Positions 22,451-32,845 of a stretch of DNA of 64,000 nt are shown one piece after another. Numbering within the stretch: position 1 is the first letter of the stretch; the number at the start of each line of letters is the position of its first letter. Source of the stretch: Escherichia coli. Lineage in GTDB: Bacteria > Pseudomonadota > Gammaproteobacteria > Enterobacterales > Enterobacteriaceae. Below the pieces are notes generated by a model. That model worked only from the letters and a program-made list of their open reading frames with translations. It had not been told where the DNA came from and searched no databases. The translations under genes and the position numbers were made by a program. The stretch is from the NCBI RefSeq assembly GCF_001677475.2, contig NZ_CP015229.1, one strand, 5' to 3'.

Positions 22451-22508
22451 AAAAAGGGCGGCAGAGCAGTCACGGAGTAAAACTGATACCGCCAAATGTC
22501 ACCAGAAT
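22451..22508 (-). ncRNA. dicF: DicF-like small regulatory RNA
   Basis: Minus-strand sequence ATTCTGGTGACATTTGGCGGTATCAGTTTTACTCCGTGACTGCTCTGCCGCCC + T-run matches recalled E. coli DicF except 2-3 nt; lies ~170 nt upstream of dicB as in Qin. Confidence 0.7.
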
Positions 22509-23923: not shown

Positions 23924-24039
23924 GTTGACCTCATTTCCCCTTAACGCTGGGGTAGCGGAACTAAAAACCTGCTGCGCTGTTATACAAAGTGTTCCCGCCG
24001 TCATGTTCATACGCCTCGGGCTGGCTACTTAATCCCTGA

Positions 24040-24200
24040 CCACTACCGGGTAACTCTAGGTATTGCCCTGTATTGTGTGGGACGGGATGGGTTGGTATGG
24101 GAAAACTATAGGAAATGCCTAATTGCTTGTCAATAGGCTATGCCTAATGATTTGGGTGCGACCTAATAGGTGATGGTTTGTGGGAGAGGTAGTAGGAGTT
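24040..24200. promoter_or_regulatory. Putative OL/PL-type operator-promoter region
   Basis: Seen in sequence: repeated TGCCTAAT / TAGGCTATGCCTAA motifs between the repressor 3' end and the leftward operon. Confidence 0.4.
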
Positions 24201-24241
24201 AACTAACGGGAACTAGGAATTTCCCGTCGGACCATATAAGT

Positions 24242-24718
24242 TTAAGTTCCTGTCTTGGTGATGTTCTGGCTTTTCCGTTTTGATTCTTGATTTTTCAGAT
24301 AGTTAGCTACCTTCATTTCCATTGCGGCAATGTAGGCGCGAACGTCATGATCAACCCAACTAGGCTCCGTAGCATTTCCAGATAAGAGGAAAGCCACAAT
24401 TGCTCTTTTTTCATCAGAGGCGGCTTGATAAAGGCTGTTTATGTCTAAAAGTTCACTTTTTGTATCTGAAGTGGATGGGGTTGGTATGGGGTATTCGTTA
24501 AGCCCCCAATGCTCTGGACCAACCACATCAGAAAAGAAACGCCATAGTTCTGGAAGTTTGTCTTTACTTATCGAACCTTTCTTAATCCAGTCATGGATTG
24601 ATGGTGGTTGGACTTTGAAATGACGTGCGATTTCCGCCTTTGATTTGACGGCTCCTGATGCAATTTTTTTGTTAATGGCCTGCTCTATCGCTCGGCCTAA
24701 GTCTTTACCACTAAGCAT
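24242..24718 (-). CDS. Phage repressor, XRE-type HTH, no S24 peptidase domain (RacR-like size)
   Basis: 158-aa ORF; N-terminal HTH (SKAEIARHFKVQPPSIHDWIKKGSISKDKLPEL); divergent from cro-like gene; C-terminus lacks Ser/Lys peptidase motifs. Confidence 0.7.
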   Translation of the reverse strand: MLSGKDLGRAIEQAINKKIASGAVKSKAEIARHFKVQPPSIHDWIKKGSISKDKLPELWRFFSDVVGPEHWGLNEYPIPTPSTSDTKSELLDINSLYQAASDEKRAIVAFLLSGNATEPSWVDHDVRAYIAAMEMKVANYLKNQESKRKSQNITKTGT

Positions 24719-24842
24719 TGCTTAATAGTCTCCTATGCGCATCGCGTTAGGCAATACCTACTCTCGAAGCGTTAGGCATAGCCTATTGACAATCACATTA
24801 GGCTAAGCCTAATATTATTGTGTGTTTTTTGGAGTTCATTCG
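24719..24842. promoter_or_regulatory. Putative OR/PR-PRM operator region
   Basis: Seen in sequence: perfect palindrome TTAGGCTAAGCCTAA plus related half-sites GCGTTAGGCA and GTTAGGCATAGCCTATTGACA in the divergent intergenic region. Confidence 0.5.
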
Positions 24843-25166
24843 ATGAAAAAAGATAACTATTCATTCAAACGAGCTTGTGCTGTTGTCGGTGGGCAATCAG
24901 CAATGGCTAGGCTTTTAGGTGTATCTCCTCCAAGCGTAAATCAATGGATCAAAGGTGTACGTCAGTTGCCTGCTGAGAGATGTCCTGCGATTGAACGAGC
25001 AACAAAAGGTGGTGTCCTGTGTGAAGAACTTCGTCCTGATGTTGATTGGACATACTTACGACGCTCGTCATGTTATTCGCAGAATATGTCGATGAAGCAA
25101 CCAAATGACGAAAACGATCATACCCGAAGCATCAAGAGGCAAATGATTCATGAAAATCAAACATGA
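24843..25166 (+). CDS. Cro/YdaS-like HTH protein
   Basis: ORF 24822..25166; start at MKKDNYSF inferred; HTH (QSAMARLLGVSPPSVNQWIKG); divergent from repressor. Confidence 0.6.
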   Translation: MKKDNYSFKRACAVVGGQSAMARLLGVSPPSVNQWIKGVRQLPAERCPAIERATKGGVLCEELRPDVDWTYLRRSSCYSQNMSMKQPNDENDHTRSIKRQMIHENQT

Positions 25167-25575
25167 GCATATCCGCATGGCGATGAATGCCTGGGCATAC
25201 CCTGATGGTGAGAAAGTTCCTGCAGCTGAAATAGCCCGGACTTATTTCGAACTGGGAATGACGTTCCCGGAACTGTACGACGACAGCCATCCGGAAGCCC
25301 TGGCCCGTAATACCCAGAAAATTTTCCGTTGGCTGGATAAAGACACCCCTGATGCTGTTGAAAAAATGCAGGCTCTGTTACCGGCGATCGAAAAGGCGAT
25401 GCCGCCTTTGCTGGTGGCCCGTATGCGCAGCCACAGTTCTGAGTATTACCGTGAGATTGTCGAACGGAGGGATCGGTTGGTGAAAGATGTCGACGATTTT
25501 GTTGCGTCAGCGGTTGTTTTGTATGACCAGATGAATCGCGGCGGCCCGGCAGGAAATGCCGTGGTGATGCACTAA
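25150..25575 (+). CDS. YdaT-like / CII-position protein
   Basis: 141-aa ORF directly after cro-like gene; size and position match the Rac racR-ydaS-ydaT arrangement. Assignment by position and size only. Confidence 0.4.
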   Translation: MKIKHEHIRMAMNAWAYPDGEKVPAAEIARTYFELGMTFPELYDDSHPEALARNTQKIFRWLDKDTPDAVEKMQALLPAIEKAMPPLLVARMRSHSSEYYREIVERRDRLVKDVDDFVASAVVLYDQMNRGGPAGNAVVMH

Positions 25576-25582
25576 CAGCACG

Positions 25583-26566
25583 GTGTTCGGGGGTTTTATG
25601 AGCAGCAAGCTTCATGGTCTTGTCTGGGAAGGATGCGCCTTCACCGGCATGATCTTATCCCGGGTGGCAGTGATGGCCCGTCTTGCAGACTACAGCAATG
25701 ACGAGGGCGTGTCATGGCCTGCTATTGAAACTATCCGGCGTCAGATCGGTGCAAGAAGTGAATCCACAGTGAAATCGGCTATTGCAGAACTGGCGAAAGA
25801 GGGCTGGCTGACGAAGGAAGAGCGTAAGGTCGGTGGGCGTAATGTAAGCAATATCTATCGGCTTAATGTGGAAAAACTCGAAGCAGCAGCTGCGGCGGCG
25901 CGTGAGTCATATAAACCGAAAAGAAAAATTAGCCCGGCAAAAAATGACCCGTTAACAGTTGACCCGTCAAATATTGACCCCTCAACGGTTGACCCGTCAA
26001 ATTTTGATGGATCAACTGTTGATAAAAAACTGCCGATTAGGGGGACGATGATTGACCCCGATCAGTCAGTATTAAAACCTGATCCGTCAGATGAAAGATC
26101 TTCTTGTCCTGACGTTTCACTGCCGGACAAAAAACAATCATCACCAGTTGAGCGATTTCTGGAGAAACACCCGGATGCGCATACCTGGAATGTGCAGAAG
26201 CGACAGTGGGGTACCCGTGAGGATGTCGCCTGTGCGCAGTGGATTTGGGGACGGGTTGTTGCGTTGTATGAACAGGCCGCCAGTGATGATGGTGAGGTAT
26301 CACGCCCCAGAGAACCTAACTGGACGACCTGGGCGAATGATGTGCGCATGATGCGTATGCTGGATGGACGTAGTCACCGGCAGATTTGTGAAATGTTTGG
26401 GCGTGTCCAGCGGGATTCGTTCTGGGTAAAAAACATCATGAGTCCGGCAAAACTCCGGGAAAAATGGGATGAGCTGGTTATTCGTCTGGGGCGTTCGCCT
26501 GTACAGCGTTGCGTGAATCACATTTCTGAACCGGATACCGAAATTCCGCCGGGGTTCAGGGGGTAA
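25583..26566 (+). CDS. Replication initiator (lambda O-like) with internal origin iterons
   Basis: 327-aa ORF; N-terminal winged-helix-like region; central repeated peptide DPLTVDPSNIDPSTVDPSNFD encoded by DNA iterons. Confidence 0.6.
   Translation: MFGGFMSSKLHGLVWEGCAFTGMILSRVAVMARLADYSNDEGVSWPAIETIRRQIGARSESTVKSAIAELAKEGWLTKEERKVGGRNVSNIYRLNVEKLEAAAAAARESYKPKRKISPAKNDPLTVDPSNIDPSTVDPSNFDGSTVDKKLPIRGTMIDPDQSVLKPDPSDERSSCPDVSLPDKKQSSPVERFLEKHPDAHTWNVQKRQWGTREDVACAQWIWGRVVALYEQAASDDGEVSRPREPNWTTWANDVRMMRMLDGRSHRQICEMFGRVQRDSFWVKNIMSPAKLREKWDELVIRLGRSPVQRCVNHISEPDTEIPPGFRG
25944..26018. repeat. Replication-origin iterons (about 5 direct repeats of TTGACCCGTCAA-like units, ~15 bp period)
   Basis: Seen in sequence: ATGACCCGTTAA, TTGACCCGTCAA, TTGACCCCTCAA, TTGACCCGTCAA, TTGATGGATCAA inside the O-like gene. 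Confidence 0.55.
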
Positions 26567-26608
26567 GTGCTGATTTGAGGTCATGAAGTTATTTTCTCAG
26601 GAGAGTTT

Positions 26609-27010
26609 ATGGGGGCTATTTATACCGAAGAACAGCGGGAAAGGTTACAGCGTCACATCGTTGACCTTGTACGTAAAAACGGGCGTATGACAATGCCACA
26701 ACTGGCATCGGCAACATATGCTTCACATGATTCCATTCGCCGGTACCTGAAGATGCTGGTGAGCCAGGGCGAAGTGTATGTTGTCAGCGGAAAAGGGGTA
26801 TTCCTTTCAGAGAGAGTTTACCGTGAATGGCTGGCAAGTTCGGCAAAAAAATCAAGGGTTATCCGCAAACCAGCACAAAAACAGGGTAAGGCCGGAGTAC
26901 AACCCTACGACCGGCACCAGAACGTAATTTGCCGGGAATGTCGTAACAGCGAATCAATGCAGCGGGTACTGGCTTTTTACAGGGGTGGATTTCAGGAGCT
27001 CGTATCGTGA
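26609..27010 (+). CDS. Hypothetical replication-region protein (133 aa)
   Basis: ORF only; occupies the position of a P/helicase-loader gene but is too small and lacks ATPase motifs. Confidence 0.35.
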   Translation: MGAIYTEEQRERLQRHIVDLVRKNGRMTMPQLASATYASHDSIRRYLKMLVSQGEVYVVSGKGVFLSERVYREWLASSAKKSRVIRKPAQKQGKAGVQPYDRHQNVICRECRNSESMQRVLAFYRGGFQELVS

Positions 27011-27315
27011 AAAAGTGGGTGCGTGCCGAGATACTGATTCTACGGCAGTGTGCGGGAACAATGACGGTGGAATGCATCGGGATGCTTATTGGTCGTAGTG
27101 AGGCTGCGGTCAGAACGAAAGCGCGGGAACTGGGTATTAGTATGATGTTACGGGGTGATTATCACCAGTCAGCAAAATATCCGCAGAGTGATATTGAGCT
27201 GGCGCGACAGCTGCATCAACGTGGCGTGTCCAGGAGAGAAATCGCCAGAAAATTTGGAATGCCGCTGCGCACAGTGAATAACTACGTTTATTTCGACAGG
27301 AGGGTGTCTGCGTGA
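27007..27315 (+). CDS. Hypothetical HTH protein (102 aa)
   Basis: Possible HTH (GVSRREIARKFGMPLRTVNNY). Confidence 0.35.
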   Translation: MKKWVRAEILILRQCAGTMTVECIGMLIGRSEAAVRTKARELGISMMLRGDYHQSAKYPQSDIELARQLHQRGVSRREIARKFGMPLRTVNNYVYFDRRVSA

Positions 27316-27557
27316 AAATCCTGTATCAGGATTACGGCCCGGTGGGACAGGTGGTTATCAGCAGTACTGTAATGGAGTTCCGGAAGCATAACCGTGTGGT
27401 GGATGCAGTGCTGTTAGCCTGTCCGGGGATATCGGCGAGCCGTGCAGGTGTGTTTTTTATGAAGACGAAGTTATATGGCAGTACAGCGTGGATAAAGAAG
27501 GCGTACCGGGTAGCGTTGCAGGAGGTAAACAGTGAGCGAATCGGCAACCATTCTTGA
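27312..27557 (+). CDS. Hypothetical protein (81 aa)
   Basis: ORF only, overlapping neighbours. Confidence 0.3.
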   Translation: MKILYQDYGPVGQVVISSTVMEFRKHNRVVDAVLLACPGISASRAGVFFMKTKLYGSTAWIKKAYRVALQEVNSERIGNHS

Positions 27558-28020
27558 TATGTCCTGTGGCAGTCGTATGTTCTGGTTCGATAAGAATGAC
27601 GACCGGGCGATATTTAGCGATATCAGAAAAGAAGAGCACACATTATGTGATGGACGACGCCTGATAATTAGCCCTGACCTGATAGCAGATTTTCGTGCAT
27701 TACCATTTGCAGACGCATCGTTTCCGGTTGTTGTATTCGACCCTCCGCATCTTGAGCGTGTTGGTGATAACGCCTGGATGGGAAAGAAATATGGACGGCT
27801 GAATAAAGATACCTGGCGTGATGATTTGCGGCAGGGATTTAAAGAAGCCTTTCGTGTGTTGTGGCCACACGGTGTTCTGATTTTTAAATGGAATGAAACG
27901 CAAATACCTGTCCGCCAGATATTGGCACTAACCGACGCGAAACCAATCATCAGCCAGCGCACCGGTAAGAACGATAAAACACATTGGATTATTTTTGTGA
28001 AGGAAGCGACCAGTGGGTAA
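27532..28020 (+). CDS. Phage N6-adenine DNA methyltransferase (small Dam-like)
   Basis: 162-aa ORF with DPPH motif (VVFDPPHLERVG), characteristic of N6-adenine/N4-cytosine methyltransferases; nin-region position typical of lambdoid phages. Confidence 0.55.
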   Translation: MSESATILDMSCGSRMFWFDKNDDRAIFSDIRKEEHTLCDGRRLIISPDLIADFRALPFADASFPVVVFDPPHLERVGDNAWMGKKYGRLNKDTWRDDLRQGFKEAFRVLWPHGVLIFKWNETQIPVRQILALTDAKPIISQRTGKNDKTHWIIFVKEATSG

Positions 28021-28267
28021 ATCAAAATGCCAGGTTTATGGCAACAAGATAGAACCGTGTACGGCACTGGCAAACTCCCTTGAGCATGATGCTGAATACA
28101 CGACGCGAAAAGGTCTGCTGATATACGAAATCTGGAATGAGAGTTTAACTCGCGGCCCTGATTTGGTGATGTTGCGATCCGGTGAATTTTCTAAATCACC
28201 AGTTCGGGTTTCATTTTTCCCGTTCTGCGGTGAAAGTCTGAAAACGTGGGAGAACAGAAATGAATGA
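28013..28267 (+). CDS. Hypothetical nin-region protein (84 aa)
   Basis: ORF only. Confidence 0.3.
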   Translation: MGKSKCQVYGNKIEPCTALANSLEHDAEYTTRKGLLIYEIWNESLTRGPDLVMLRSGEFSKSPVRVSFFPFCGESLKTWENRNE

Positions 28268-28571
28268 AATTAGAGAAATACCAGTAGAACGTGATGAATA
28301 TGGCTGCTGGACACATCCAGAATATGAAAAATTCTGTGACGGTCGGGAATATATTTCAACGGAAGAGTTTAACGCCTGGATGAAGGAAAATAATCTTCAG
28401 TGGACTATTTGCAGCATGGATGAAGATTATTTAAATCCGGTTGCAGATGACCCCGATATTTCCGCCTGGGAACCGGAACGACCAGAGGGCGAAGGCTGGT
28501 TTATTAGCTCCATTCATGATACTGAAGATGGTCCGGTTTGTGTCTGGTTGCGAAACAAGGTGATGGCATAG
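28260..28571 (+). CDS. Hypothetical nin-region protein (103 aa)
   Basis: ORF only. Confidence 0.3.
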   Translation: MNEIREIPVERDEYGCWTHPEYEKFCDGREYISTEEFNAWMKENNLQWTICSMDEDYLNPVADDPDISAWEPERPEGEGWFISSIHDTEDGPVCVWLRNKVMA

Positions 28572-28874
28572 ATGAGAATAGAAAAAGCGAAAGCACAGCT
28601 CAGGATAATGCTTGCTGGTCCGGCTGCGAGTTATATGACACATTCACCAGCCATAAAGAAGGTTCTTGATGAACTGGAAGCCAAAGACAAGCGCATTGCA
28701 GAACTGGAGGCGAGGGAAATCCAGTTACCTGCTGGCTTCGACCTTCGATATGGACACCCGATAAATGCTGATGAGCGACATGTGATGATACCTAAAGAAA
28801 ATGGCAACTGGATTTATCGGACTGACTTAGAGCACGTACTACGTGTTGCAGGGATTCGAATTAAAGGAGACTAA
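28572..28874 (+). CDS. Hypothetical nin-region protein (100 aa)
   Basis: ORF only. Confidence 0.3.
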   Translation: MRIEKAKAQLRIMLAGPAASYMTHSPAIKKVLDELEAKDKRIAELEAREIQLPAGFDLRYGHPINADERHVMIPKENGNWIYRTDLEHVLRVAGIRIKGD

Positions 28875-29232
28875 CGTGGAAATAAAACCAGAAGATGAGT
28901 TAAGTAATATTGTTTTATTTCCGGTAAAAGAGGATGACCCACGTAATCAGGTTAATTTTCTTTATGAGCCATCGGAAAGACCATATTGTCATCACGCCTC
29001 TGTCCGGGTTGACGAAAAAGAGCGTCAGGTCCGCTGTAAAATCTGCGGTGCAGTTGTGGAGCTATTTGACTGGATGCTCTCTGTGGCGAAAAGAGAAACC
29101 AGACTGGCAGATGATGTAAGGATCTTGCGCCAGGAGGAACGGGAAAGGCGGAGAAATATAGAAAAGCTAATTCAGATTGAGCGTAACGTGAAAGCGCGGA
29201 TACGCAGGGTGACAAAATCCAGAACTGAATAA
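28843..29232 (+). CDS. Hypothetical nin-region protein with CxxC zinc-ribbon motif
   Basis: ORF; CKICGAVVE motif; basic C-terminus. True start possibly GTG near 28877. Confidence 0.3.
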   Translation: MLQGFELKETNVEIKPEDELSNIVLFPVKEDDPRNQVNFLYEPSERPYCHHASVRVDEKERQVRCKICGAVVELFDWMLSVAKRETRLADDVRILRQEERERRRNIEKLIQIERNVKARIRRVTKSRTE

Positions 29233-29280
29233 TTAAATTTAGCTCTGTTAAAAATTTAATCCTTAACCGGAGGTATATCA

Positions 29281-29493
29281 ATGTCAAACGCACAGAAAGT
29301 TATTAACGCTGAAAAATATAACGAGTGGGTGAAAAAGTTCTCAGAGCAGATTTTTAAAATTACTGGCGACGAGAATGCGGCAAAAAATGAATTAGAGCCG
29401 TGGACACCTGAAGGTGTCGACCCAAATTATTGCTGGTGGGATGTTGATCCAGTTGATGCTGCAAATGAAGCTATGAGTTATCACAACGATTAA
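29281..29493 (+). CDS. Hypothetical protein (70 aa)
   Basis: ORF only. Confidence 0.3.
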   Translation: MSNAQKVINAEKYNEWVKKFSEQIFKITGDENAAKNELEPWTPEGVDPNYCWWDVDPVDAANEAMSYHND

Positions 29494-29528
29494 TGTCAGG
29501 AGGCCGCCCGAAAGGGCGGTAATGAAAA

Positions 29529-30362
29529 GTGACTGAATTAACCAAAGAGCAATTAATCGAAGAAGCCAAATTAAAAATAGCGATTGCGAAATGCTACCCC
29601 AGTTCAGGGATGGCACGGGTAGAGGGCGAGTTATTCAAAATTGCACTGGCATCGCTGGAAGCAGAACCAATAGGTGCTTTCCACATTGTAGAACAGCAAG
29701 TTGACGGAACAAGTTACTATATCAAGGATGGGGAATGGCCTATTGATACTGGGATTATTGAAGTCTACGCCGCCTCACCGATGACGGTAGTGCTGAACGA
29801 TGTATCTGGACCTCTTGCTCTTGCTTACAAAGAGCTTACACCTGCGATTATGCGCAACCATATCGCTGTATTCGAACGATACGGAATAACCCCAAACGAT
29901 AGCATTACTACAATTCATGCGCTTCGAATTGCGCTGGATGGCATAGAGCGGAGCGACGCCATGCTTCATGGACGTCAGCCATGCCATCAAATTACCGCCT
30001 CAATGGCAAAAGCTATTGCGCTTAAACTTGGTGCCGAACTGAATAACGAAGAAGCAGAGATTTTCGCGGATGGGTATAACACCGCCATGCTTCATGCCGA
30101 AAACTTTCGGGAAAATAAGAATTCGTCAACCAATAATTTTCGGATAACCTCGGAAACGTCAACCAACTCTCCGGCAATCCCTGATGAGGTGTTGTCCGCA
30201 ATCCTGAAGGTCGCCAGGCTTCGTGCAGATTTCGATGCTTCTGAAGGTGACAGGCGAGGTATCGGTGGTTGTCTGGATGAGGCCGAGCAAGAACTTATCG
30301 TTACCATTAACAAATACGCCAGTCAGATCGCAGTAGAAGCGATACAGGGGGCGCACCAATGA
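29529..30362 (+). CDS. Hypothetical nin-region protein (277 aa)
   Basis: ORF only. Confidence 0.35.
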   Translation: MTELTKEQLIEEAKLKIAIAKCYPSSGMARVEGELFKIALASLEAEPIGAFHIVEQQVDGTSYYIKDGEWPIDTGIIEVYAASPMTVVLNDVSGPLALAYKELTPAIMRNHIAVFERYGITPNDSITTIHALRIALDGIERSDAMLHGRQPCHQITASMAKAIALKLGAELNNEEAEIFADGYNTAMLHAENFRENKNSSTNNFRITSETSTNSPAIPDEVLSAILKVARLRADFDASEGDRRGIGGCLDEAEQELIVTINKYASQIAVEAIQGAHQ

Positions 30363-30470
30363 GCCGGCCCGATGCATTTGCAGGCGTTGCTATAGCTATT
30401 GCTTTTCCAGTATATGTTATTTGTCGGTGGGGGTAAAAACGTTCGCCGGAATTCACACCAAGGGAGGGAA

Positions 30471-30575
30471 TATGTCGGATGATATTTCACTGGTAATGGA
30501 AGGCGCTCTGGCTGTTATTGCTGTTGTGGGTGTTTACTGCCTGGTTGTGTTTTTGATGGATCGCCTGGGGAACTG
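30471..30575 (+). CDS. Putative small hydrophobic peptide (34 aa)
   Basis: Hand translation: MSDDISLVMEGALAVIAVVGVYCLVVFLMDRLGN, single TM-like peptide; not in ORF track (<60 aa). Confidence 0.3.
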
Positions 30576-30763
30576 AATTCATTCCGTATGGGAATTCCCA
30601 TATCGGGCAAAAACGGTTTGCTGTAAAGCGAGAGTTAAGTAGAATTGCTGCGGGTGCTTGAGGCTATCTGCCTCGGGCATGCCGCCGTAAGGCAGACAGA
30701 GAAAAGCCCCAGTTAACATTACGCGTCCTGCAAGACGCTTAACATTAATCTGAGGCCATATCT

Positions 30764-30976
30764 ATGACTTGCACACGTAGGTTAGCCTCTTACGTGCCGA
30801 AAGGCAAGGAGAAGCAGGCTATGAAGCAGCAAAAGGCGATGTTAATCGCCCTGATCGTCATCTGTTTAACCGTTATAGTGACGGCACTGGTAACGAGGAA
30901 AGACCTCTGCGAGGTACGAATCCGAACCGGCCAGACGGAGGTCGCTGTCTTCACAGCTTACGAACCTGAGGAGTAA
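30764..30976 (+). CDS. mok: Mok-like in-frame N-terminal extension reading frame of the hok toxin gene
   Basis: 70-aa ORF MTCTRRLASYVPKGKEKQAMKQQK... containing the hok frame, as recalled for chromosomal mokC/hokC. Confidence 0.5.
   Translation: MTCTRRLASYVPKGKEKQAMKQQKAMLIALIVICLTVIVTALVTRKDLCEVRIRTGQTEVAVFTAYEPEE
30821..30976 (+). CDS. hok: Hok/Gef-family type I toxin
   Basis: MKQQKAMLIALIVICLTVIVTALVTRKDLCEVRIRTGQTEVAVFTAYEPEE, near-identical in pattern to recalled Gef/HokC. Confidence 0.8.
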   Translation: MKQQKAMLIALIVICLTVIVTALVTRKDLCEVRIRTGQTEVAVFTAYEPEE

Positions 30977-31044
30977 GAGACCTGGCGGGGGAGAAATCCC
31001 TCGCCACCTCTGATGTGTCAGGCTTCCTCAACGCACCCGCACTT

Positions 31045-31073
31045 AACCCGCTTCGGCGGGTTTTGTTTTTTCT
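31045..31073 (+). terminator. Rho-independent terminator downstream of hok
   Basis: Seen in sequence: hairpin CCCGCTTCGGCGGG followed by T-run. Confidence 0.45.
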
Positions 31074-31140
31074 GTGCATTCTGGTTTACAATTCGCACGC
31101 CAGCCTGAACAACTGGCACCTGCTGCGCCAGCAGAGACAA

Positions 31141-31422
31141 CCGATGGCGCACGATACCAAATTACACAATTCTGATGATTCTGCCGTTTTTGCCAGCAGG
31201 CACGGGCTGCGTTCTCACGCATTCAAATATGACTGGTATCAGCACGATCCCTGCACTGAAGAACAGGCCGAATGGCTGATTCATAACTACCGCAGACGTG
31301 GGTATGAGTTTAAGAAAGCCCTCAGTCTCGATTATCGTCACTGGATAATCTACGTCAGACTCCCTTATTCCGAACGCCCGCCGCGTCCATCCCGCACATT
31401 CCAGCAACGGATCTGGAGGTAA
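31141..31422 (+). CDS. Hypothetical protein (about 92 aa from internal Met of ORF 31015..31422)
   Basis: ORF only; start uncertain. Confidence 0.3.
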   Translation, partial: PMAHDTKLHNSDDSAVFASRHGLRSHAFKYDWYQHDPCTEEQAEWLIHNYRRRGYEFKKALSLDYRHWIIYVRLPYSERPPRPSRTFQQRIWR

Positions 31423-31423
31423 C

Positions 31424-32473
31424 GTGCGGGTATTACTTCGACCTGTTCCGGTGCCGGAACTCGGGCTGGTGGTCCTTAAGCCGGGCCGTGAATCCATGCA
31501 GGTATTTCATAACCCTCGAGTGCTGGTGGAGCCGGAACCGAAAAGCATGCGCGGTCTGCCGTCCGGAGTTGTTCCTGCCGTTCGCCAGCCGCTGGCGGAA
31601 GATAAATCATTGCTGCCATTTTTCAGCGACGAACGGGTGATTCGTGCTGCCGGCGGCGCTGGTGCACTGTCTGACTGGCTCCTGCGTCATGTTAAATCCT
31701 GCCAGTGGCCTCATGGTGACTACCATCACAGTGAAACCGTCATACATCGTTACGGTACCGACGCGATGGTGTTGTGCTGGCACTGCGACAACCAGCTGCG
31801 TGACCAGACCTCAGAATCACTTGAGCAACTTGCTCAACAAAACCTGACAGCATGGATGATTGACGTCATCCGTCACGCAATAAGCGGTGCGCAGGAGCGG
31901 GAATTATCGCTGGCTGAATTATCCTGGTGGGCTGTCTGCAATCAGGTGGCGGACGCACTACCGGAGGTAGTATTACGTCGTTCTCTGGGGTTACGTGCGG
32001 AAAAAATTCGCTCGGTGTACCGCGAAAGCGACATCATACCGGGAGAGCAGACAGCCACCAGCATACTGAAGCAGCGCACAAAAAATATTGTGCTATCGCC
32101 TCACGTCCACCAGCAACAGAACTCACCGCAGGAAAAGGCGGTTGTCAGCATTGCTGTTGATCCGGAGTCTCCGGAATCTTTCATGAAGCGACCTAAACGT
32201 CGCCGTTGGGTAAATGAGAAATACACTCGCTGGGTAAAGACACAGCCGTGTGCGTGTTGTGGTCAACCAGCCGACGATCCCCATCACCTGATTGGTCATG
32301 GTCAGGGCGGAATGGGAACAAAATCCCACGATATTTTCACGCTACCGCTGTATCGGGAGCATCACAACGAGCTTCATGCGGATCCGCTGGCGTTCGAAGA
32401 AAAGCATGGTTCCCAGATTGATTTAATTTTTCGTTTTCTTGATCGCGCCTTTGCAACCGGCGTGCTCGGGTAA
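31424..32473 (+). CDS. DUF968-like phage protein with C-terminal Cys/His cluster
   Basis: 349-aa ORF; C-terminal CACCGQPADDPHHLIGHGQGGMGTKSHD...REHHNELH resembles the DUF968 family found upstream of rusA/Q. Family assignment from memory. Confidence 0.45.
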   Translation: MRVLLRPVPVPELGLVVLKPGRESMQVFHNPRVLVEPEPKSMRGLPSGVVPAVRQPLAEDKSLLPFFSDERVIRAAGGAGALSDWLLRHVKSCQWPHGDYHHSETVIHRYGTDAMVLCWHCDNQLRDQTSESLEQLAQQNLTAWMIDVIRHAISGAQERELSLAELSWWAVCNQVADALPEVVLRRSLGLRAEKIRSVYRESDIIPGEQTATSILKQRTKNIVLSPHVHQQQNSPQEKAVVSIAVDPESPESFMKRPKRRRWVNEKYTRWVKTQPCACCGQPADDPHHLIGHGQGGMGTKSHDIFTLPLYREHHNELHADPLAFEEKHGSQIDLIFRFLDRAFATGVLG

Positions 32474-32485
32474 AAGAGGTTACTG

Positions 32486-32845
32486 ATGCGTATAGAATTT
32501 GTTTTGCCTTACCCGCCGACGGTGAACACCTACTGGCGACGCCGTGGCAGCACGTATTTTATATCGGAAGCCGGTAAGCGTTATCGCCGTGATGTGGCAC
32601 TTATTGTTCGCCAGCAGCGGCTGAAATTAAATCTGTCCGGAAGGCTGGCGATAAAGGTTATCACAGAGCCGCCGGATAAGCGCCGTCGTGATCTGGACAA
32701 TATCCTGAAAGCACCGCTGGATGCGCTGACGCATGCGGGGCTTCTCATAGACGACGAGCAGTTTGATGAAATCAATATTGTGCGCGGTCTGCCTGTTCCT
32801 GGTGGGCGGCTGGGGATAAAAATCACAGAGCTGGAGTGCGCATGA
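32486..32845 (+). CDS. rusA: Holliday-junction resolvase RusA
   Basis: 119-aa ORF aligning by eye with E. coli RusA (PYPPTVNTYWRRRG, RRRDLDN, GRL...ITE). Confidence 0.8.
   Translation: MRIEFVLPYPPTVNTYWRRRGSTYFISEAGKRYRRDVALIVRQQRLKLNLSGRLAIKVITEPPDKRRRDLDNILKAPLDALTHAGLLIDDEQFDEINIVRGLPVPGGRLGIKITELECA

What the first reader, a model, noticed from the sequence alone, without database searches (positions are those of the whole stretch)
30600..31075. hok/mok type I toxin-antitoxin locus inside the prophage
A Hok/Gef-family toxin with an in-frame Mok-like upstream extension and a downstream terminator lies in the nin region. The ~150-bp leader (30600-30760) is structured and should encode the antisense Sok-like RNA on the opposite strand, though I cannot place its promoter by eye. 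Such loci can stabilise the prophage or act in abortive infection.
Basis: partly seen in the sequence, partly recalled or inferred. Interest (0 to 1): 0.5.

Follow-up and report, generated by a model that had tools for sequence, protein, structure and literature searches.

The report
Intact hokD-type hok/mok/sok toxin-antitoxin cassette

Summary
Window 30618-31071 holds a complete hok/mok/sok type I toxin-antitoxin cassette.

- **Toxin:** it has the same RefSeq protein accession as E. coli K-12 HokD. Its mRNA leader matches Rfam RF01794 at 110.6 bits against a threshold of 59.
- **R1-type elements present:** hok promoter, tac, 5' metastable hairpin, ucb/anti-SD, mok in frame with hok, the hok SD/anti-SD hairpin, 3' protective hairpin, fbi and terminator.
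- **Fold:** the full-length mRNA pairs its 5' end (30652-30663) with fbi (31026-31038), z = -7.3.
- **Sok:** I place it on the minus strand. The -35 is TTGCCT (30807-30802) and the -10 is TAACCT (30784-30779). The start is about 30772 and the end about 30700. This matches the sokW annotation of phage 933W and sokC of K-12.

Relatives occur in 4740 of 5426 complete E. coli genomes. The closest tested relative, hokW-sokW, is a proven toxin-antitoxin pair. K-12 hokD is a truncated version that lacks the leader, the mok start and sok.

This is already known and of low interest. One side observation: the target loop that Sok recognises (30767-30771) is about eleven times more variable than synonymous hok sites across related prophage cassettes.

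The parts
30618..30645 (+). hok (mok-hok) promoter: -35 TTGCTG (30618-30623), 16-nt spacer, -10 TAGAAT (30640-30645)
   Evidence: Read from the sequence. The -10 lies 7 nt before the conserved mRNA 5' end. It is conserved as TAGAAT, TATAAT, TACAAT or TAGGAT in hokW, hokC and plasmid relatives. Diversity at the -10 is 0.00-0.17 against about 0.55 in the flanks. The consensus scan missed it because the -35 matches only 3 of 6. The assignment rests on position and homology, not on a measurement.
30652..31071 (+). Full-length mok-hok mRNA, about 420 nt, from the conserved 5' GGGUGCUUGAGG to the terminator U tract
   Evidence: The 5' end is set by alignment with R1-type hok. The numbering G4, C5, T6, A70, G71, C72 used in PMC9841398 fits that sequence. 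The fold has dG = -177 kcal/mol and z = -7.3, with 0 of 100 shuffles as stable. The conserved cassette across 134 unique prophage loci spans 30636-31064.
30652..30663 (+). tac (translational activator element), GGGTGCTTGAGG
   Evidence: It pairs with fbi in the full-length minimum-energy fold. It pairs with ucb in the RNAalifold consensus of 12 cross-clade leaders, including a U-A to C-G compensation in hokB. It is identical in 180 of 183 prophage copies.
30670..30683 (+). Partner of tac in the nascent-transcript (metastable) 5' hairpin, GCCTCGGGCATGCC
   Evidence: Folds of the first 49, 109 and 179 nt pair 30652-30664 with 30670-30683. This is the same behaviour as the metastable hairpin described for R1 (PMC9841398).
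30704..30712 (+). ucb / mok anti-SD (AAGCCCCAG)
   Evidence: In the full-length fold, GCCCCAG (30706-30712) pairs with CUGAGGC (30750-30756) and so covers the mok SD. In the conserved alternative fold, AAGCCCC (30704-30710) pairs with tac (Rfam alignment).
30700..30772 (-). Sok antisense RNA, about 71-73 nt: free 5' tail (30772-30759), long imperfect hairpin (30758-30705), U tract
   Evidence: The sokW annotation of 933W maps here through alignment A1. It overlaps mok by 9 nt, as sokC overlaps mokC. The fold has dG = -29.8 and z = -4.9, with 0 of 200 shuffles as stable. Expression was not tested.
30779..30807 (-). Sok promoter: -35 TTGCCT (30807-30802), 17-nt spacer, -10 TAACCT (30784-30779); start about G30772
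   Evidence: Read from the minus strand. The same hexamers appear in the 933W row of the alignment. A -10 mutation in sokW abolished antitoxin activity (PMC8621323). R1 has TTGCGC and TATCCT at the same place. The -10 is almost invariant across loci, pi at most 0.03 except for one G/A site. The match to consensus is weak (7 of 12) and the scan missed it.
30752..30790 (+). sokT target hairpin: mok SD GAGG (30752-30755) at the base helix GAGGC/GCCUC, mok AUG in the stem, loop CUUGCAC (30768-30774)
   Evidence: This is the third hairpin of the Rfam model. The base helix is conserved in 11 of 12 cross-clade leaders. The loop is the diversity hot spot.
30764..30976 (+). mok reading frame, 70 codons, in frame with hok and sharing its stop
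   Evidence: ORF list. The arrangement matches mokC/hokC of K-12 and mokW/hokW of 933W.
30786..30811 (+). hok SD (AAGGAG, 30806-30811) sequestered by CCTCTT (30786-30791) across a small GCCGAAAGGC hairpin
   Evidence: These are paired in the full-length fold. The motif GCCTCTTAC...CAAGGAGAA is conserved from R1 to hokB.
30821..30976 (+). hok toxin gene, 51 aa, MKQQKAMLIALIVICLTVIVTALVTRKDLCEVRIRTGQTEVAVFTAYEPEE
   Evidence: It matches Pfam HOK_GEF at E = 3.5e-23. RefSeq names it hokD (WP_000813254.1), the same accession as K-12 HokD. It is the commonest Hok sequence in the viral-contig sample: 49 of the 87 unique motif-retrieved cassettes that met the flank requirement.
30984..31005 (+). 3'-UTR hairpin GGCGGGGGAGAAATCCCTCGCC, the expected protective 3' end of the processed (truncated) mRNA
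   Evidence: It is present in all folds. It is positionally equivalent to the last stem-loop of Tr-hok in R1 (PMC9841398; alignment). Processing itself was not tested.
31026..31038 (+). fbi (fold-back inhibitory element), CCTCAACGCACCC
   Evidence: It pairs 12 bp with tac: 30652-30657 with 31038-31033, and 30658-30663 with 31031-31026. The duplex is -21.5 kcal/mol and 0 of 300 shuffled 3' UTRs reach it. The site sits at the same distance (stop +47 to +56) in hokW, hokB and plasmid relatives, with compensating changes.
31045..31071 (+). Intrinsic terminator of the hok mRNA
   Evidence: Terminator scan: 7-bp stem with 5 G-C pairs, 4-nt loop, T run. K-12 hokD has the same terminator; 933W has a different 3' end.

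Best explanation
Window 30618-31071 is an intact hok/mok/sok type I toxin-antitoxin cassette of the prophage-borne HokD/HokW subfamily. It is carried as a self-contained moron in the nin region of a Rac/Qin-like lambdoid prophage.

The mechanism below is inferred by homology with plasmid R1 hok/sok. Each sequence element is shown here; each activity is not.

1. A weak constitutive promoter makes a stable mok-hok mRNA of about 420 nt.
2. While the transcript is nascent, its 5' end (tac) is held in a local hairpin.
3. In the finished transcript tac pairs with fbi near the 3' end. The mok ribosome-binding site stays covered by ucb, so the RNA can neither be translated nor bound by Sok.
4. Slow 3' trimming removes fbi. 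tac then switches to ucb, which frees the mok ribosome-binding site and the target hairpin.
5. The short-lived Sok RNA is transcribed from the opposite strand, starting 9 nt inside mok. It pairs with this region, blocks mok translation and so blocks the coupled hok translation. The duplex is destroyed by RNase III.
6. When Sok supply stops, the processed mRNA is translated and the 51-aa Hok peptide depolarises the inner membrane.

Biological role is the least certain part. The cassette is co-oriented with the early rightward operon and Sok is transcribed head-on against it. I therefore think the most likely trigger is prophage induction or loss. The payoff would be selfish maintenance together with help in lysis and release, as shown for hokW-sokW.
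For: **Identity**
- Rfam RF01794 matches at 110.6 bits against a threshold of 59.
- Pfam HOK_GEF matches at E = 3.5e-23.
- RefSeq names the CDS hokD, with the same protein accession as K-12 HokD.
- The DNA is about 91% identical to the annotated mokW/hokW/sokW locus of 933W.

**Elements**
- tac pairs with fbi in the minimum-energy fold of the full-length RNA, z = -7.3.
- The tac-fbi duplex is -21.5 kcal/mol and 0 of 300 shuffles reach it. Equivalent sites with compensating changes occur in hokB and in the Klebsiella and Atlantibacter plasmid loci.
- The R1-type control folds the same way.
- The nascent transcript forms the metastable 5' hairpin.
- An independent RNAalifold consensus of 12 cross-clade leaders gives the tac/ucb stem, the long hairpin (4 pairs with changes on both sides) and the GAGGC/GCCUC helix.

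**Sok**
- Its position, promoter hexamers and 9-nt overlap with mok match sokW and sokC.
- It folds with z = -4.9.

**Intactness**
- The mok and hok frames are open.
- tac and fbi carry the consensus sequences found in 148 of 183 prophage copies, apart from one flanking base.

**Function of relatives**
- HokW is toxic and sokW neutralises it. A sokW -10 mutation is toxic. Mitomycin C removes sokW RNA and induces HokW in a RecA-dependent way, and deleting the locus halves phage release (PMC8621323).
- HokD peptide is toxic when expressed (preprint 10.1101/2025.08.07.668861).

**Context**
- All neighbouring genes, from the O-like gene to the Q-like gene, are on the + strand.
Against: - Nothing here measures transcription, processing, toxicity or neutralisation.
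- Both promoters match consensus weakly and the consensus scan missed them.
- For the 3'-truncated RNA, ViennaRNA prefers the 5' metastable hairpin over tac/ucb by 6-7 kcal/mol. The experimentally established R1 control shows the same preference by 1.5-5 kcal/mol, so this test is inconclusive rather than negative.
[quoted passage not shown] This is reported second-hand in preprint 10.1101/2025.08.07.668861, citing Pedersen and Gerdes 1999. An intact sequence therefore does not guarantee killing.
- The toxin carries Tyr47 (codon TAC followed by G). According to the same preprint it may need TadA editing to Cys for full toxicity.
- hokW lies at the far right end of 933W, not in the nin region. 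The induction data may not transfer to this position.
Confidence: 0.9

Rival explanations
1. The cassette looks intact but is an inactive relic. It is transcribed poorly or locked in the closed fold, like the chromosomal hokA, hokB and hokC loci that failed to kill. It persists only by hitch-hiking in the prophage.
For: - Both promoters are weak matches.
- The metastable 5' hairpin is 13 bp here, and the open tac/ucb fold is 6-7 kcal/mol less favourable in silico, more than in the R1 control.
- Chromosomal hok loci were reported inactive in killing assays (preprint 10.1101/2025.08.07.668861).
- Obvious relics of the same cassette are common. K-12 hokD lacks everything 5' of 30807. L214 has a frameshifted hok and no fbi. 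O104:H4 Stx phages keep only 36% of the cassette, in two pieces.
Against: - Every element is present and at the clade consensus.
- Diversity is low across the hok codons (mean pi 0.03 at 1st/2nd positions, 0.05 at 3rd) and across tac, the SD boxes and the Sok hairpin. This argues for purifying selection on the whole cassette in 134 unique loci.
- The 91% identical hokW-sokW locus, which has the same Sok promoter hexamers, works (PMC8621323).
Confidence: 0.12
2. The cassette is active, and its selected role is abortive infection, that is exclusion of superinfecting lytic phages. Host transcription shut-off stops Sok synthesis and Hok kills the cell before the invader matures.
For: - R1 hok/sok on a high-copy plasmid cut T4 plating by 42% and reduced plaque size (cited in PMC8621323).
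- hok genes are four-fold enriched in prophages, which often carry defence genes (preprint 10.1101/2025.08.07.668861).
Against: - The same preprint found no enrichment of hok next to defence systems.
- The R1 effect was modest and depended on high copy number.
- For the closest relative, the measured effect favours the resident phage's own release (PMC8621323).
- Nothing in this window bears on the question.
Confidence: 0.2
3. The cassette is active and serves mainly as an addiction module. Cells that lose the prophage, or recombinants that delete this segment, are killed by the stable hok mRNA left behind.
For: - This is the canonical role of the family on plasmids (PMC9841398, PMC10899753).
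- The cassette behaves as an autonomous unit. Its boundaries coincide with the transcription unit, and its flanks are unrelated between loci.
Against: - Chromosomal hok loci did not show post-segregational killing in the classic tests (preprint 10.1101/2025.08.07.668861).
- Prophage loss is rare compared with plasmid loss.
- This role does not exclude the lysis-helper role.
Confidence: 0.35

Closest known systems
hokW-sokW (with mokW) of Stx2 phage 933W / Sakai prophage Sp5
   Same: - About 91% DNA identity over the cassette.
- Identical tac, ucb, Sok hairpin (one loop base differs), Sok promoter hexamers, SD boxes and fbi.
- Same 70-codon mok in frame with a 51-codon hok, and the same 9-nt Sok/mok overlap.
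- Experimentally a working type I toxin-antitoxin pair (PMC8621323).
   Different: - The toxin C-terminus differs...VFTAYEPEE here against ...VFVDYESEK.
- mok codons 2-5 and the Sok 5' tail differ: ATGACTTGCACACG against ATGCTGAACACATG. Cross-neutralisation is therefore not assured.
- 933W lacks this terminator.
- hokW lies near the right end of the phage genome, not in the nin region.
hokD (relF) of the Qin prophage, E. coli K-12
   Same: - Same protein accession.
- 98% identical DNA from 30807 through the coding region, fbi and terminator.
- Same downstream neighbours, namely the DUF968 ydfU-type gene and then the antiterminator.
   Different: In K-12 the relBE operon replaces everything 5' of window position 30807. 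The hok promoter, tac, ucb, the mok start, the Sok RNA and most of the Sok promoter are all missing. The window holds the complete form, of which K-12 hokD is a truncated copy.
hok/sok of plasmid R1 (archetype)
   Same: - Same order and spacing of promoter, tac, metastable partner, ucb, Sok terminator hairpin, mok SD and AUG, Sok promoter, hok SD hairpin, hok, 3' hairpin, fbi and terminator.
- Same tac-fbi closure in the full-length fold.
- Same leader consensus fold.
   Different: - It is a different Hok clade. Takada et al. give 44% identity between Hok and HokW (PMC8621323).
- tac is GGCGCUU with fbi GAAGCGCC, against GGGUGCUU with GCACCC here.
- It is plasmid-borne, with a demonstrated post-segregational killing role.
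hokC (gef)/mokC/sokC of E. coli K-12
   Same: - Identical tac and ucb.
- Same mok/hok/sok layout, with sokC annotated 9 nt into mokC.
- The mok start segment of hokC (ATGCTGAACACATGTAG) is the same as that of hokW.
   Different: - IS186 sits just downstream of hokC in K-12 and removes fbi. The tac complement there is not significant.
- The Sok hairpin is shorter.
- It lies in the core chromosome, not in a prophage.

Membership tests
[quoted passage not shown] | Small Hok/Gef-family membrane toxin (about 50 aa, one transmembrane helix, conserved Cys) | tested here: met
   Pfam PF01848 matches at E = 3.5e-23 over residues 25-66 of Mok. PHROG 251 matches at E = 7.7e-33. The RefSeq name is hokD. 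NCBIfam NF007279 scored 47.6 bits, below its curated cut-off of 73, with the 70-aa Mok query.
[quoted passage not shown] | Overlapping mok reading frame that starts upstream of hok, with the hok SD occluded so that hok translation depends on mok | tested here: met
   The ORF at 30764-30976 contains hok (30821-30976) in frame. CCUCUU pairs with AAGGAG in the fold. Translational coupling itself was not tested.
[quoted passage not shown] | Conserved hok mRNA leader fold (tac/ucb stem, long hairpin, Sok-terminator hairpin, sokT hairpin) | tested here: met
   Rfam RF01794 matches the full model (positions 1-157) at 110.6 bits against 59. RNAalifold on 12 cross-clade leaders recovers tac/ucb with one compensated pair and a long hairpin with 3 compensated pairs.
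[quoted passage not shown] | Long-range 5'-3' closure (tac-fbi) of the full-length mRNA | tested here: met
   The minimum-energy fold pairs 30652-30663 with 31026-31038. The duplex is -21.5 kcal/mol and 0 of 300 shuffles reach it. The R1 control folds alike.
[quoted passage not shown] | Metastable 5' hairpin in the nascent transcript | tested here: met
   Folds of 49-179-nt 5' fragments pair tac with 30670-30683.
[quoted passage not shown] | Refolding to the open tac/ucb form after 3' truncation | tested here: inconclusive
   The pairing is possible and conserved. The energy model places it 6-7 kcal/mol above the minimum-energy fold. It also fails to predict the open form for the R1 control, by 1.5-5 kcal/mol.
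[quoted passage not shown] | Cis-encoded antisense Sok RNA with its own promoter inside the mok/hok SD region, a free 5' tail complementary to the mok start, and a terminator hairpin | tested here: met
   Sok is placed at 30772..30700 on the minus strand by transfer of the sokW annotation and by analogy with sokC. The promoter is TTGCCT, 17-nt spacer, TAACCT. The fold has z = -4.9. This is met at sequence level only.
[quoted passage not shown] | Sok is expressed and unstable, and it neutralises Hok; the duplex is cleaved by RNase III | not testable with these tools
   This is shown only for relatives: hokW-sokW (PMC8621323) and R1 (PMC9841398).
[quoted passage not shown] | Slow 3' exonucleolytic processing to a translatable truncated mRNA | not testable with these tools
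   The protective hairpin at 30984-31005 is present. Processing needs a rifampicin-chase northern blot.
HokD (RelF) orthologue group | Protein identical or nearly identical to K-12 HokD | tested here: met
   WP_000813254.1 is the accession both in the 100%-identical RefSeq locus and in K-12.
HokD (RelF) orthologue group | K-12 gene arrangement relB-relE-hokD, without mok or sok | tested here: not met
   There is no relBE here. A full leader, mok and sok are present, and K-12 homology starts only at 30807. This is the complete version of the locus, not the K-12 arrangement.

The most novel reading that the evidence does not exclude
The few bases that Sok uses to find its target are a fast-evolving specificity determinant. 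These are the sokT loop and its flanks at 30757-30777, which also form the Sok 5' tail and mok codons 2-4. On this reading, prophage hok/sok cassettes that are otherwise about 95% identical fall into many mutually orthogonal 'incompatibility' alleles. Each prophage's killer would then answer only to its own antidote, even in strains carrying up to ten copies.

In 134 unique cassettes the loop has pi = 0.55. That compares with 0.05 at hok third-codon positions and 0.05 in the adjacent Sok hairpin, and there are 19 distinct alleles of the 15-nt segment.

The evidence neither excludes nor establishes this. Among independent co-resident pairs, 11 of 12 differ, but random pairs differ 90% of the time. 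Relaxed constraint on a segment that always stays self-complementary between the two strands is the dull alternative.
Probability: 0.3. Interest if true: 0.4.

Novelty: already known. Interest (0 to 1): 0.12.

Why it matters
It matters little for discovery. The family, its mechanism, its enrichment in prophages and even this exact sequence are already in public databases and papers.

It has some practical value.

- RefSeq annotates only the hokD CDS at this locus. The mok frame and the Sok RNA are unannotated.
- The Rfam 'sok' model reports the sense strand, so automated pipelines will put the antitoxin on the wrong strand.
- The window gives a clean, complete reference for the truncated K-12 hokD.

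If the side observation on the hypervariable recognition loop holds, it would explain how many near-identical killer cassettes coexist in one genome without cross-protection.

Tried and rejected
1. **Consensus promoter scan.** It found neither the hok nor the Sok promoter, because both fall below its 4-of-6 rule. I placed them by homology instead.
2. **Truncated-mRNA fold.** The minimum-energy fold of the 3'-truncated RNA did not give the expected tac/ucb form. The R1 positive control also failed, so I count the test as uninformative.
3. **NCBIfam.** The Hok models scored below their curated cut-offs with the 70-aa query. Pfam and PHROGs were decisive instead.
4. **Insulation test for the hypervariable loop.** The raw count was 7 same and 11 different co-resident pairs. 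Six of the 'same' pairs were 100% identical over 2.4 kb, so they are redundant contigs. That leaves 1 same and 11 different, against a 10% background of identical pairs. The test has no power.
5. **YUNR U-turn motif in the target loop.** It is present in this allele (CUUG) but absent from the commonest allele, so it is not diagnostic.
6. **Sub-threshold Rfam isrK hit on the hok 3' UTR.** It scored 26.7 bits against a threshold of 50 at 30985-31066. The match is mostly two hairpins and a U tail, and no Gifsy-type relative turned up in the phage search. I dropped it.
7. **Overlap of tRNAs with an annotated TerB CDS.** This was a coordinate-transfer error. The window and the RefSeq locus differ by indels outside the cassette. 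There is no overlap.
8. **Whole-window coordinate transfer from NZ_CP013662.1.** It is valid only around the cassette. The 511-nt query is 100% identical, but the flanks have different offsets.
Full report
**1. What is in the sequence**

The stretch 30600-31075 contains a 70-codon ORF at 30764-30976 on the + strand. Its last 51 codons, from the ATG at 30821, read MKQQKAMLIALIVICLTVIVTALVTRKDLCEVRIRTGQTEVAVFTAYEPEE.

- The ORF matches Pfam HOK_GEF at E = 3.5e-23.
- It matches PHROG 251 'MokW-like host killing' at E = 7.7e-33.
- A terminator follows: a stem at 31045-31062 and then a T run.
- A whole-window Rfam scan gives one strong hit here. RF01794 'sok' covers 30652-30826 on the + strand at 110.6 bits against a gathering score of 59, and spans the full model.

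One point of hygiene concerns the Rfam model. It ends in the hok SD and AUG and matches the + strand. On the minus strand it scores only 15 bits. It models the hok mRNA leader, not the antisense RNA itself.

**2. Where it comes from and how common it is**

- The 511 bases 30580-31090 are 100% identical to the E. coli 08-00022 chromosome, where RefSeq annotates only a hokD CDS.
- The protein accession, WP_000813254.1, is the same as that of K-12 HokD.
- Relatives of the cassette occur in 4740 of 5426 complete E. coli genomes, with a median of 2 and up to 10 places per genome.
- They also occur in 110 phage records, including 933W, VT2-Sakai and many Stx phages, and in P1-like and other plasmids.
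- The surrounding genes confirm the nin-region setting. An O-like initiator lies at 25583-26566. After the cassette come DUF968/HNH (31424-32473), RusA (32486-32845) and a Q-like antiterminator (32836-33531), all on the + strand.

**3. Anatomy**

I aligned the locus with 933W hokW, K-12 hokC and hokB, an R1-type plasmid hok, and plasmid loci from Salmonella, Klebsiella and Atlantibacter. All classical elements appear in the same order. The sequence at each coordinate was verified.

| Element | Coordinates | Sequence |
|---|---|---|
| hok promoter -35 | 30618-30623 | TTGCTG |
| hok promoter -10 | 30640-30645 | TAGAAT |
| mRNA 5' end / tac | 30652-30663 | GGGTGCTTGAGG |
| tac's local (metastable) partner | 30670-30683 | GCCTCGGGCATGCC |
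| ucb / anti-SD | 30704-30712 | AAGCCCCAG |
| mok SD | 30752-30755 | GAGG |
| mok ATG | 30764 | ATG |
| hok anti-SD | 30786-30791 | CCTCTT |
| hok SD | 30806-30811 | AAGGAG |
| hok ATG | 30821 | ATG |
| stop | 30974-30976 | TAA |
| 3' hairpin | 30984-31005 | GGCGGGGGAGAAATCCCTCGCC |
| fbi | 31026-31038 | CCTCAACGCACCC |
| terminator | 31045-31071 | AACCCGCTTCGGCGGGTTTTGTTTTTT |

The R1-type sequence fits the numbering used by Le Rhun et al. (G4, C5, T6, A70, G71, C72; PMC9841398). This anchors the +1 assignment to within a base.

**4. Fold tests**

- **Full-length RNA (30652-31070).** It folds at -177 kcal/mol with z = -7.3. Positions 30652-30663 pair with 31038-31026.
- **tac-fbi duplex.** Taken alone it is -21.5 kcal/mol, and 0 of 300 shuffled 3' UTRs reach it.
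- **Relatives.** Equivalent sites lie 47-56 nt after the stop codon in hokW, PPompW, a plasmid hokD, hokB and the Klebsiella and Atlantibacter loci. Compensating differences are seen, for example GGGUGC/GCACCC against GGCGC/GCGCC, and U7 to C7 with A to G in hokB.
- **Negative case.** K-12 hokC, where IS186 sits just downstream, has lost the site.
- **Nascent fragments.** 5' fragments of 49-179 nt fold tac into the local hairpin, which is the metastable structure.
- **Cross-clade consensus.** RNAalifold on 12 cross-clade leaders, run without any imposed structure, returns three features:
  - the tac/ucb stem, 7 pairs with one compensated;
  - the long hairpin, 3 pairs with changes on both sides;
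  - the GAGGC/GCCUC helix that holds the mok SD.
- **Failed expectation.** After removing fbi in silico, the minimum-energy fold keeps the metastable hairpin. The tac/ucb form is 6-7 kcal/mol higher. The experimentally established R1 RNA behaves the same way in this model, by 1.5-5 kcal/mol. I treat this test as inconclusive.

**5. The antisense gene**

The 933W record annotates sokW on the opposite strand, starting 9 nt inside mokW. K-12 annotates sokC 9 nt inside mokC. Transferred through alignment A1, Sok here runs from about G30772 to about 30700 on the minus strand.

- **Promoter.** Upstream on that strand lie TTGCCT (30807-30802), a 17-nt spacer and TAACCT (30784-30779).
  - The 933W row of the alignment has the same hexamers.
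  - R1 has TTGCGC and TATCCT at the same position.
  - Takada et al. showed that mutating the sokW -10 makes the locus toxic and that sokW in trans rescues it (PMC8621323).
- **Fold.** The predicted RNA has a free 5' tail of about 14 nt, a long imperfect hairpin and a U tract (-29.8 kcal/mol, z = -4.9).

Neither is met.

**6. Relation to known loci**

- **K-12 hokD.** It shares 98% identity with the window, but only from 30807 onward. relBE replaces the promoter, leader, mok start and sok. The window therefore shows the complete locus from which the K-12 gene is a truncated copy.
- **hokW-sokW.** It is about 91% identical. It differs in the toxin C-terminus, in mok codons 2-5 and the Sok tail, and in the 3' end. 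It also lies at the right end of 933W rather than in the nin region.
- **Degraded versions.** L214 has a frameshifted hok and no fbi. O104:H4 Stx phages retain only 36% of the cassette.
- **Literature.** A 2026 preprint catalogues thousands of Hok homologues. It reports four-fold enrichment in prophages and confirms HokD toxicity (10.1101/2025.08.07.668861).

**7. Cassette boundaries and a diversity hot spot**

I collected 134 unique prophage cassettes from viral contigs in two ways. One was by protein similarity. The other was by the exact motif GCCTCTTAC-N9-14-CAAGGAGAA, so zero diversity inside that motif is by construction.

- **Boundaries.** Per-site diversity is about 0.55 outside 30636-31064 and mostly below 0.1 inside. 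The conserved unit therefore equals the transcription unit plus the -10, as expected for a mobile moron.
- **Hot spot.** Inside the cassette one segment stands out, at 30757-30777, on both sides of the invariant mok ATG.
  - The loop of the target hairpin (30767-30771) has mean pi = 0.55.
  - hok third-codon positions have 0.05, and the Sok hairpin has 0.05.
  - There are 19 alleles of the 15-nt segment, and the window's own allele is rare (3 of 134).
- **What the segment is.** It is the Sok 5' tail and its target loop, the part that starts antisense recognition in R1. That role is established knowledge of the family, not something tested here.
- **Test of allele avoidance.** I asked whether co-resident copies avoid sharing alleles. 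After removing redundant contigs, 11 of 12 pairs differ, but random pairs differ 90% of the time. The test cannot discriminate.

I report this as an unexplained side observation. It is compatible with diversifying selection for orthogonality. It is equally compatible with relaxed constraint on a segment whose two strands stay complementary whatever mutates.

**8. Mechanism and role**

- **Shown here.** All sequence elements are present and intact. The closed fold, the nascent hairpin and the conserved open-fold pairing are predicted. The Sok gene has a promoter and a terminator.
- **Inferred by homology.** These steps follow R1 and hokW-sokW: constitutive transcription, inertness of the full-length RNA, 3' trimming, refolding, Sok binding, RNase III cleavage, mok-coupled hok translation and membrane depolarisation (PMC9841398, PMC8621323).
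- **My own inference.** The cassette is co-oriented with the early rightward operon and Sok is transcribed against it. Induction should therefore both raise sense transcripts and interfere with Sok. This would fit the RecA-dependent loss of sokW RNA seen by Takada et al.
- **Role.** The three candidates (addiction, helper of lysis and release, or abortive infection) cannot be separated with these tools.

**9. Verdict**

The finding is correct and well described, but it is a textbook element that is already annotated and already studied. Novelty: already known. Interest: low.

Noticed in passing
window 30757-30777 (both strands): The Sok 5' tail, the sokT loop and mok codons 2-4 form a diversity hot spot inside an otherwise about 95% conserved cassette. 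Pi is 0.55 in the loop against 0.05 at hok third-codon positions, with 19 alleles among 134 unique prophage cassettes. The co-resident test had no power.
   Followed up: partly
window 30587-30602: A perfect 16-bp palindrome, TATGGGAATTCCCATA, lies 65 nt upstream of the hok mRNA start. It is unique in the window (0.03 expected by chance). It sits at the same distance from mok in 54 of 215 fetched loci, and downstream of hok in L163. Its function is unknown; it could be a protein site or a recombination junction next to the cassette.
   Followed up: partly
window 30472-30576 (+): A 34-aa strongly hydrophobic ORF (MSDDISLVMEGALAVIAVVGVYCLVVFLMDRLGN) lies just upstream of the cassette. RefSeq annotates it as hypothetical, and it has no NCBIfam or PHROG match.
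   Followed up: partly
window 30652-30826 (+): Rfam RF01794, named 'sok antitoxin', is built in the hok-mRNA sense orientation and includes the hok SD and AUG. Its hits mark the toxin leader strand, not the antitoxin strand. RefSeq annotates neither mok nor Sok at this locus.
   Followed up: yes
window 30959-30962 (+): The Hok Tyr47 codon UAC is followed by G, giving UACG, the TadA A-to-I editing motif. A 2026 preprint states that hokD mRNA is edited at this position to give Cys (10.1101/2025.08.07.668861). That would add a further layer of control on toxicity.
   Followed up: no
window 30985-31066 (+): There is a sub-threshold Rfam hit to isrK, a Salmonella Gifsy-1 sRNA, on the hok 3' UTR: 26.7 bits against a gathering score of 50, E = 0.0003 in a 171-nt search. 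The match is mostly two hairpins plus a U tail. No supporting homologue was found in the phage collection.
   Followed up: partly
window 22456-22507 (-), 34822-34897 (+), 34999-35075 (+), 35877-36052 (+): Other RNA genes of the prophage: DicF (77 bits); tRNA-Met(CAU) and tRNA-Arg(UCU), both downstream of the Q-like gene; and STnc100 (93.7 bits).
   Followed up: no
phage record PP818812.1 (Actinobacillus phage vB_Apl-pPE4), 13219-13644: A phage labelled as infecting Actinobacillus pleuropneumoniae carries a cassette 96% identical to this E. coli one. The host label or the origin of that sequence looks doubtful.
   Followed up: no
L214 (NZ_CP043295.1); phage records HE664024, KU298437 and others; L003 (K-12): These are degraded copies of the same cassette. 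One has a frameshifted 41-aa hok and no fbi. O104:H4-type Stx2 phages keep only 36% of the cassette, in two pieces. K-12 hokD is cut at window position 30807 by relBE.
   Followed up: partly
window about 24000-36000 compared with L002: The cassette is 100% identical to E. coli 08-00022, but coordinate offsets to that genome change on both sides, by about 560 bp upstream and about 690 bp downstream. The window's prophage therefore differs from that record by indels outside the cassette.
   Followed up: no
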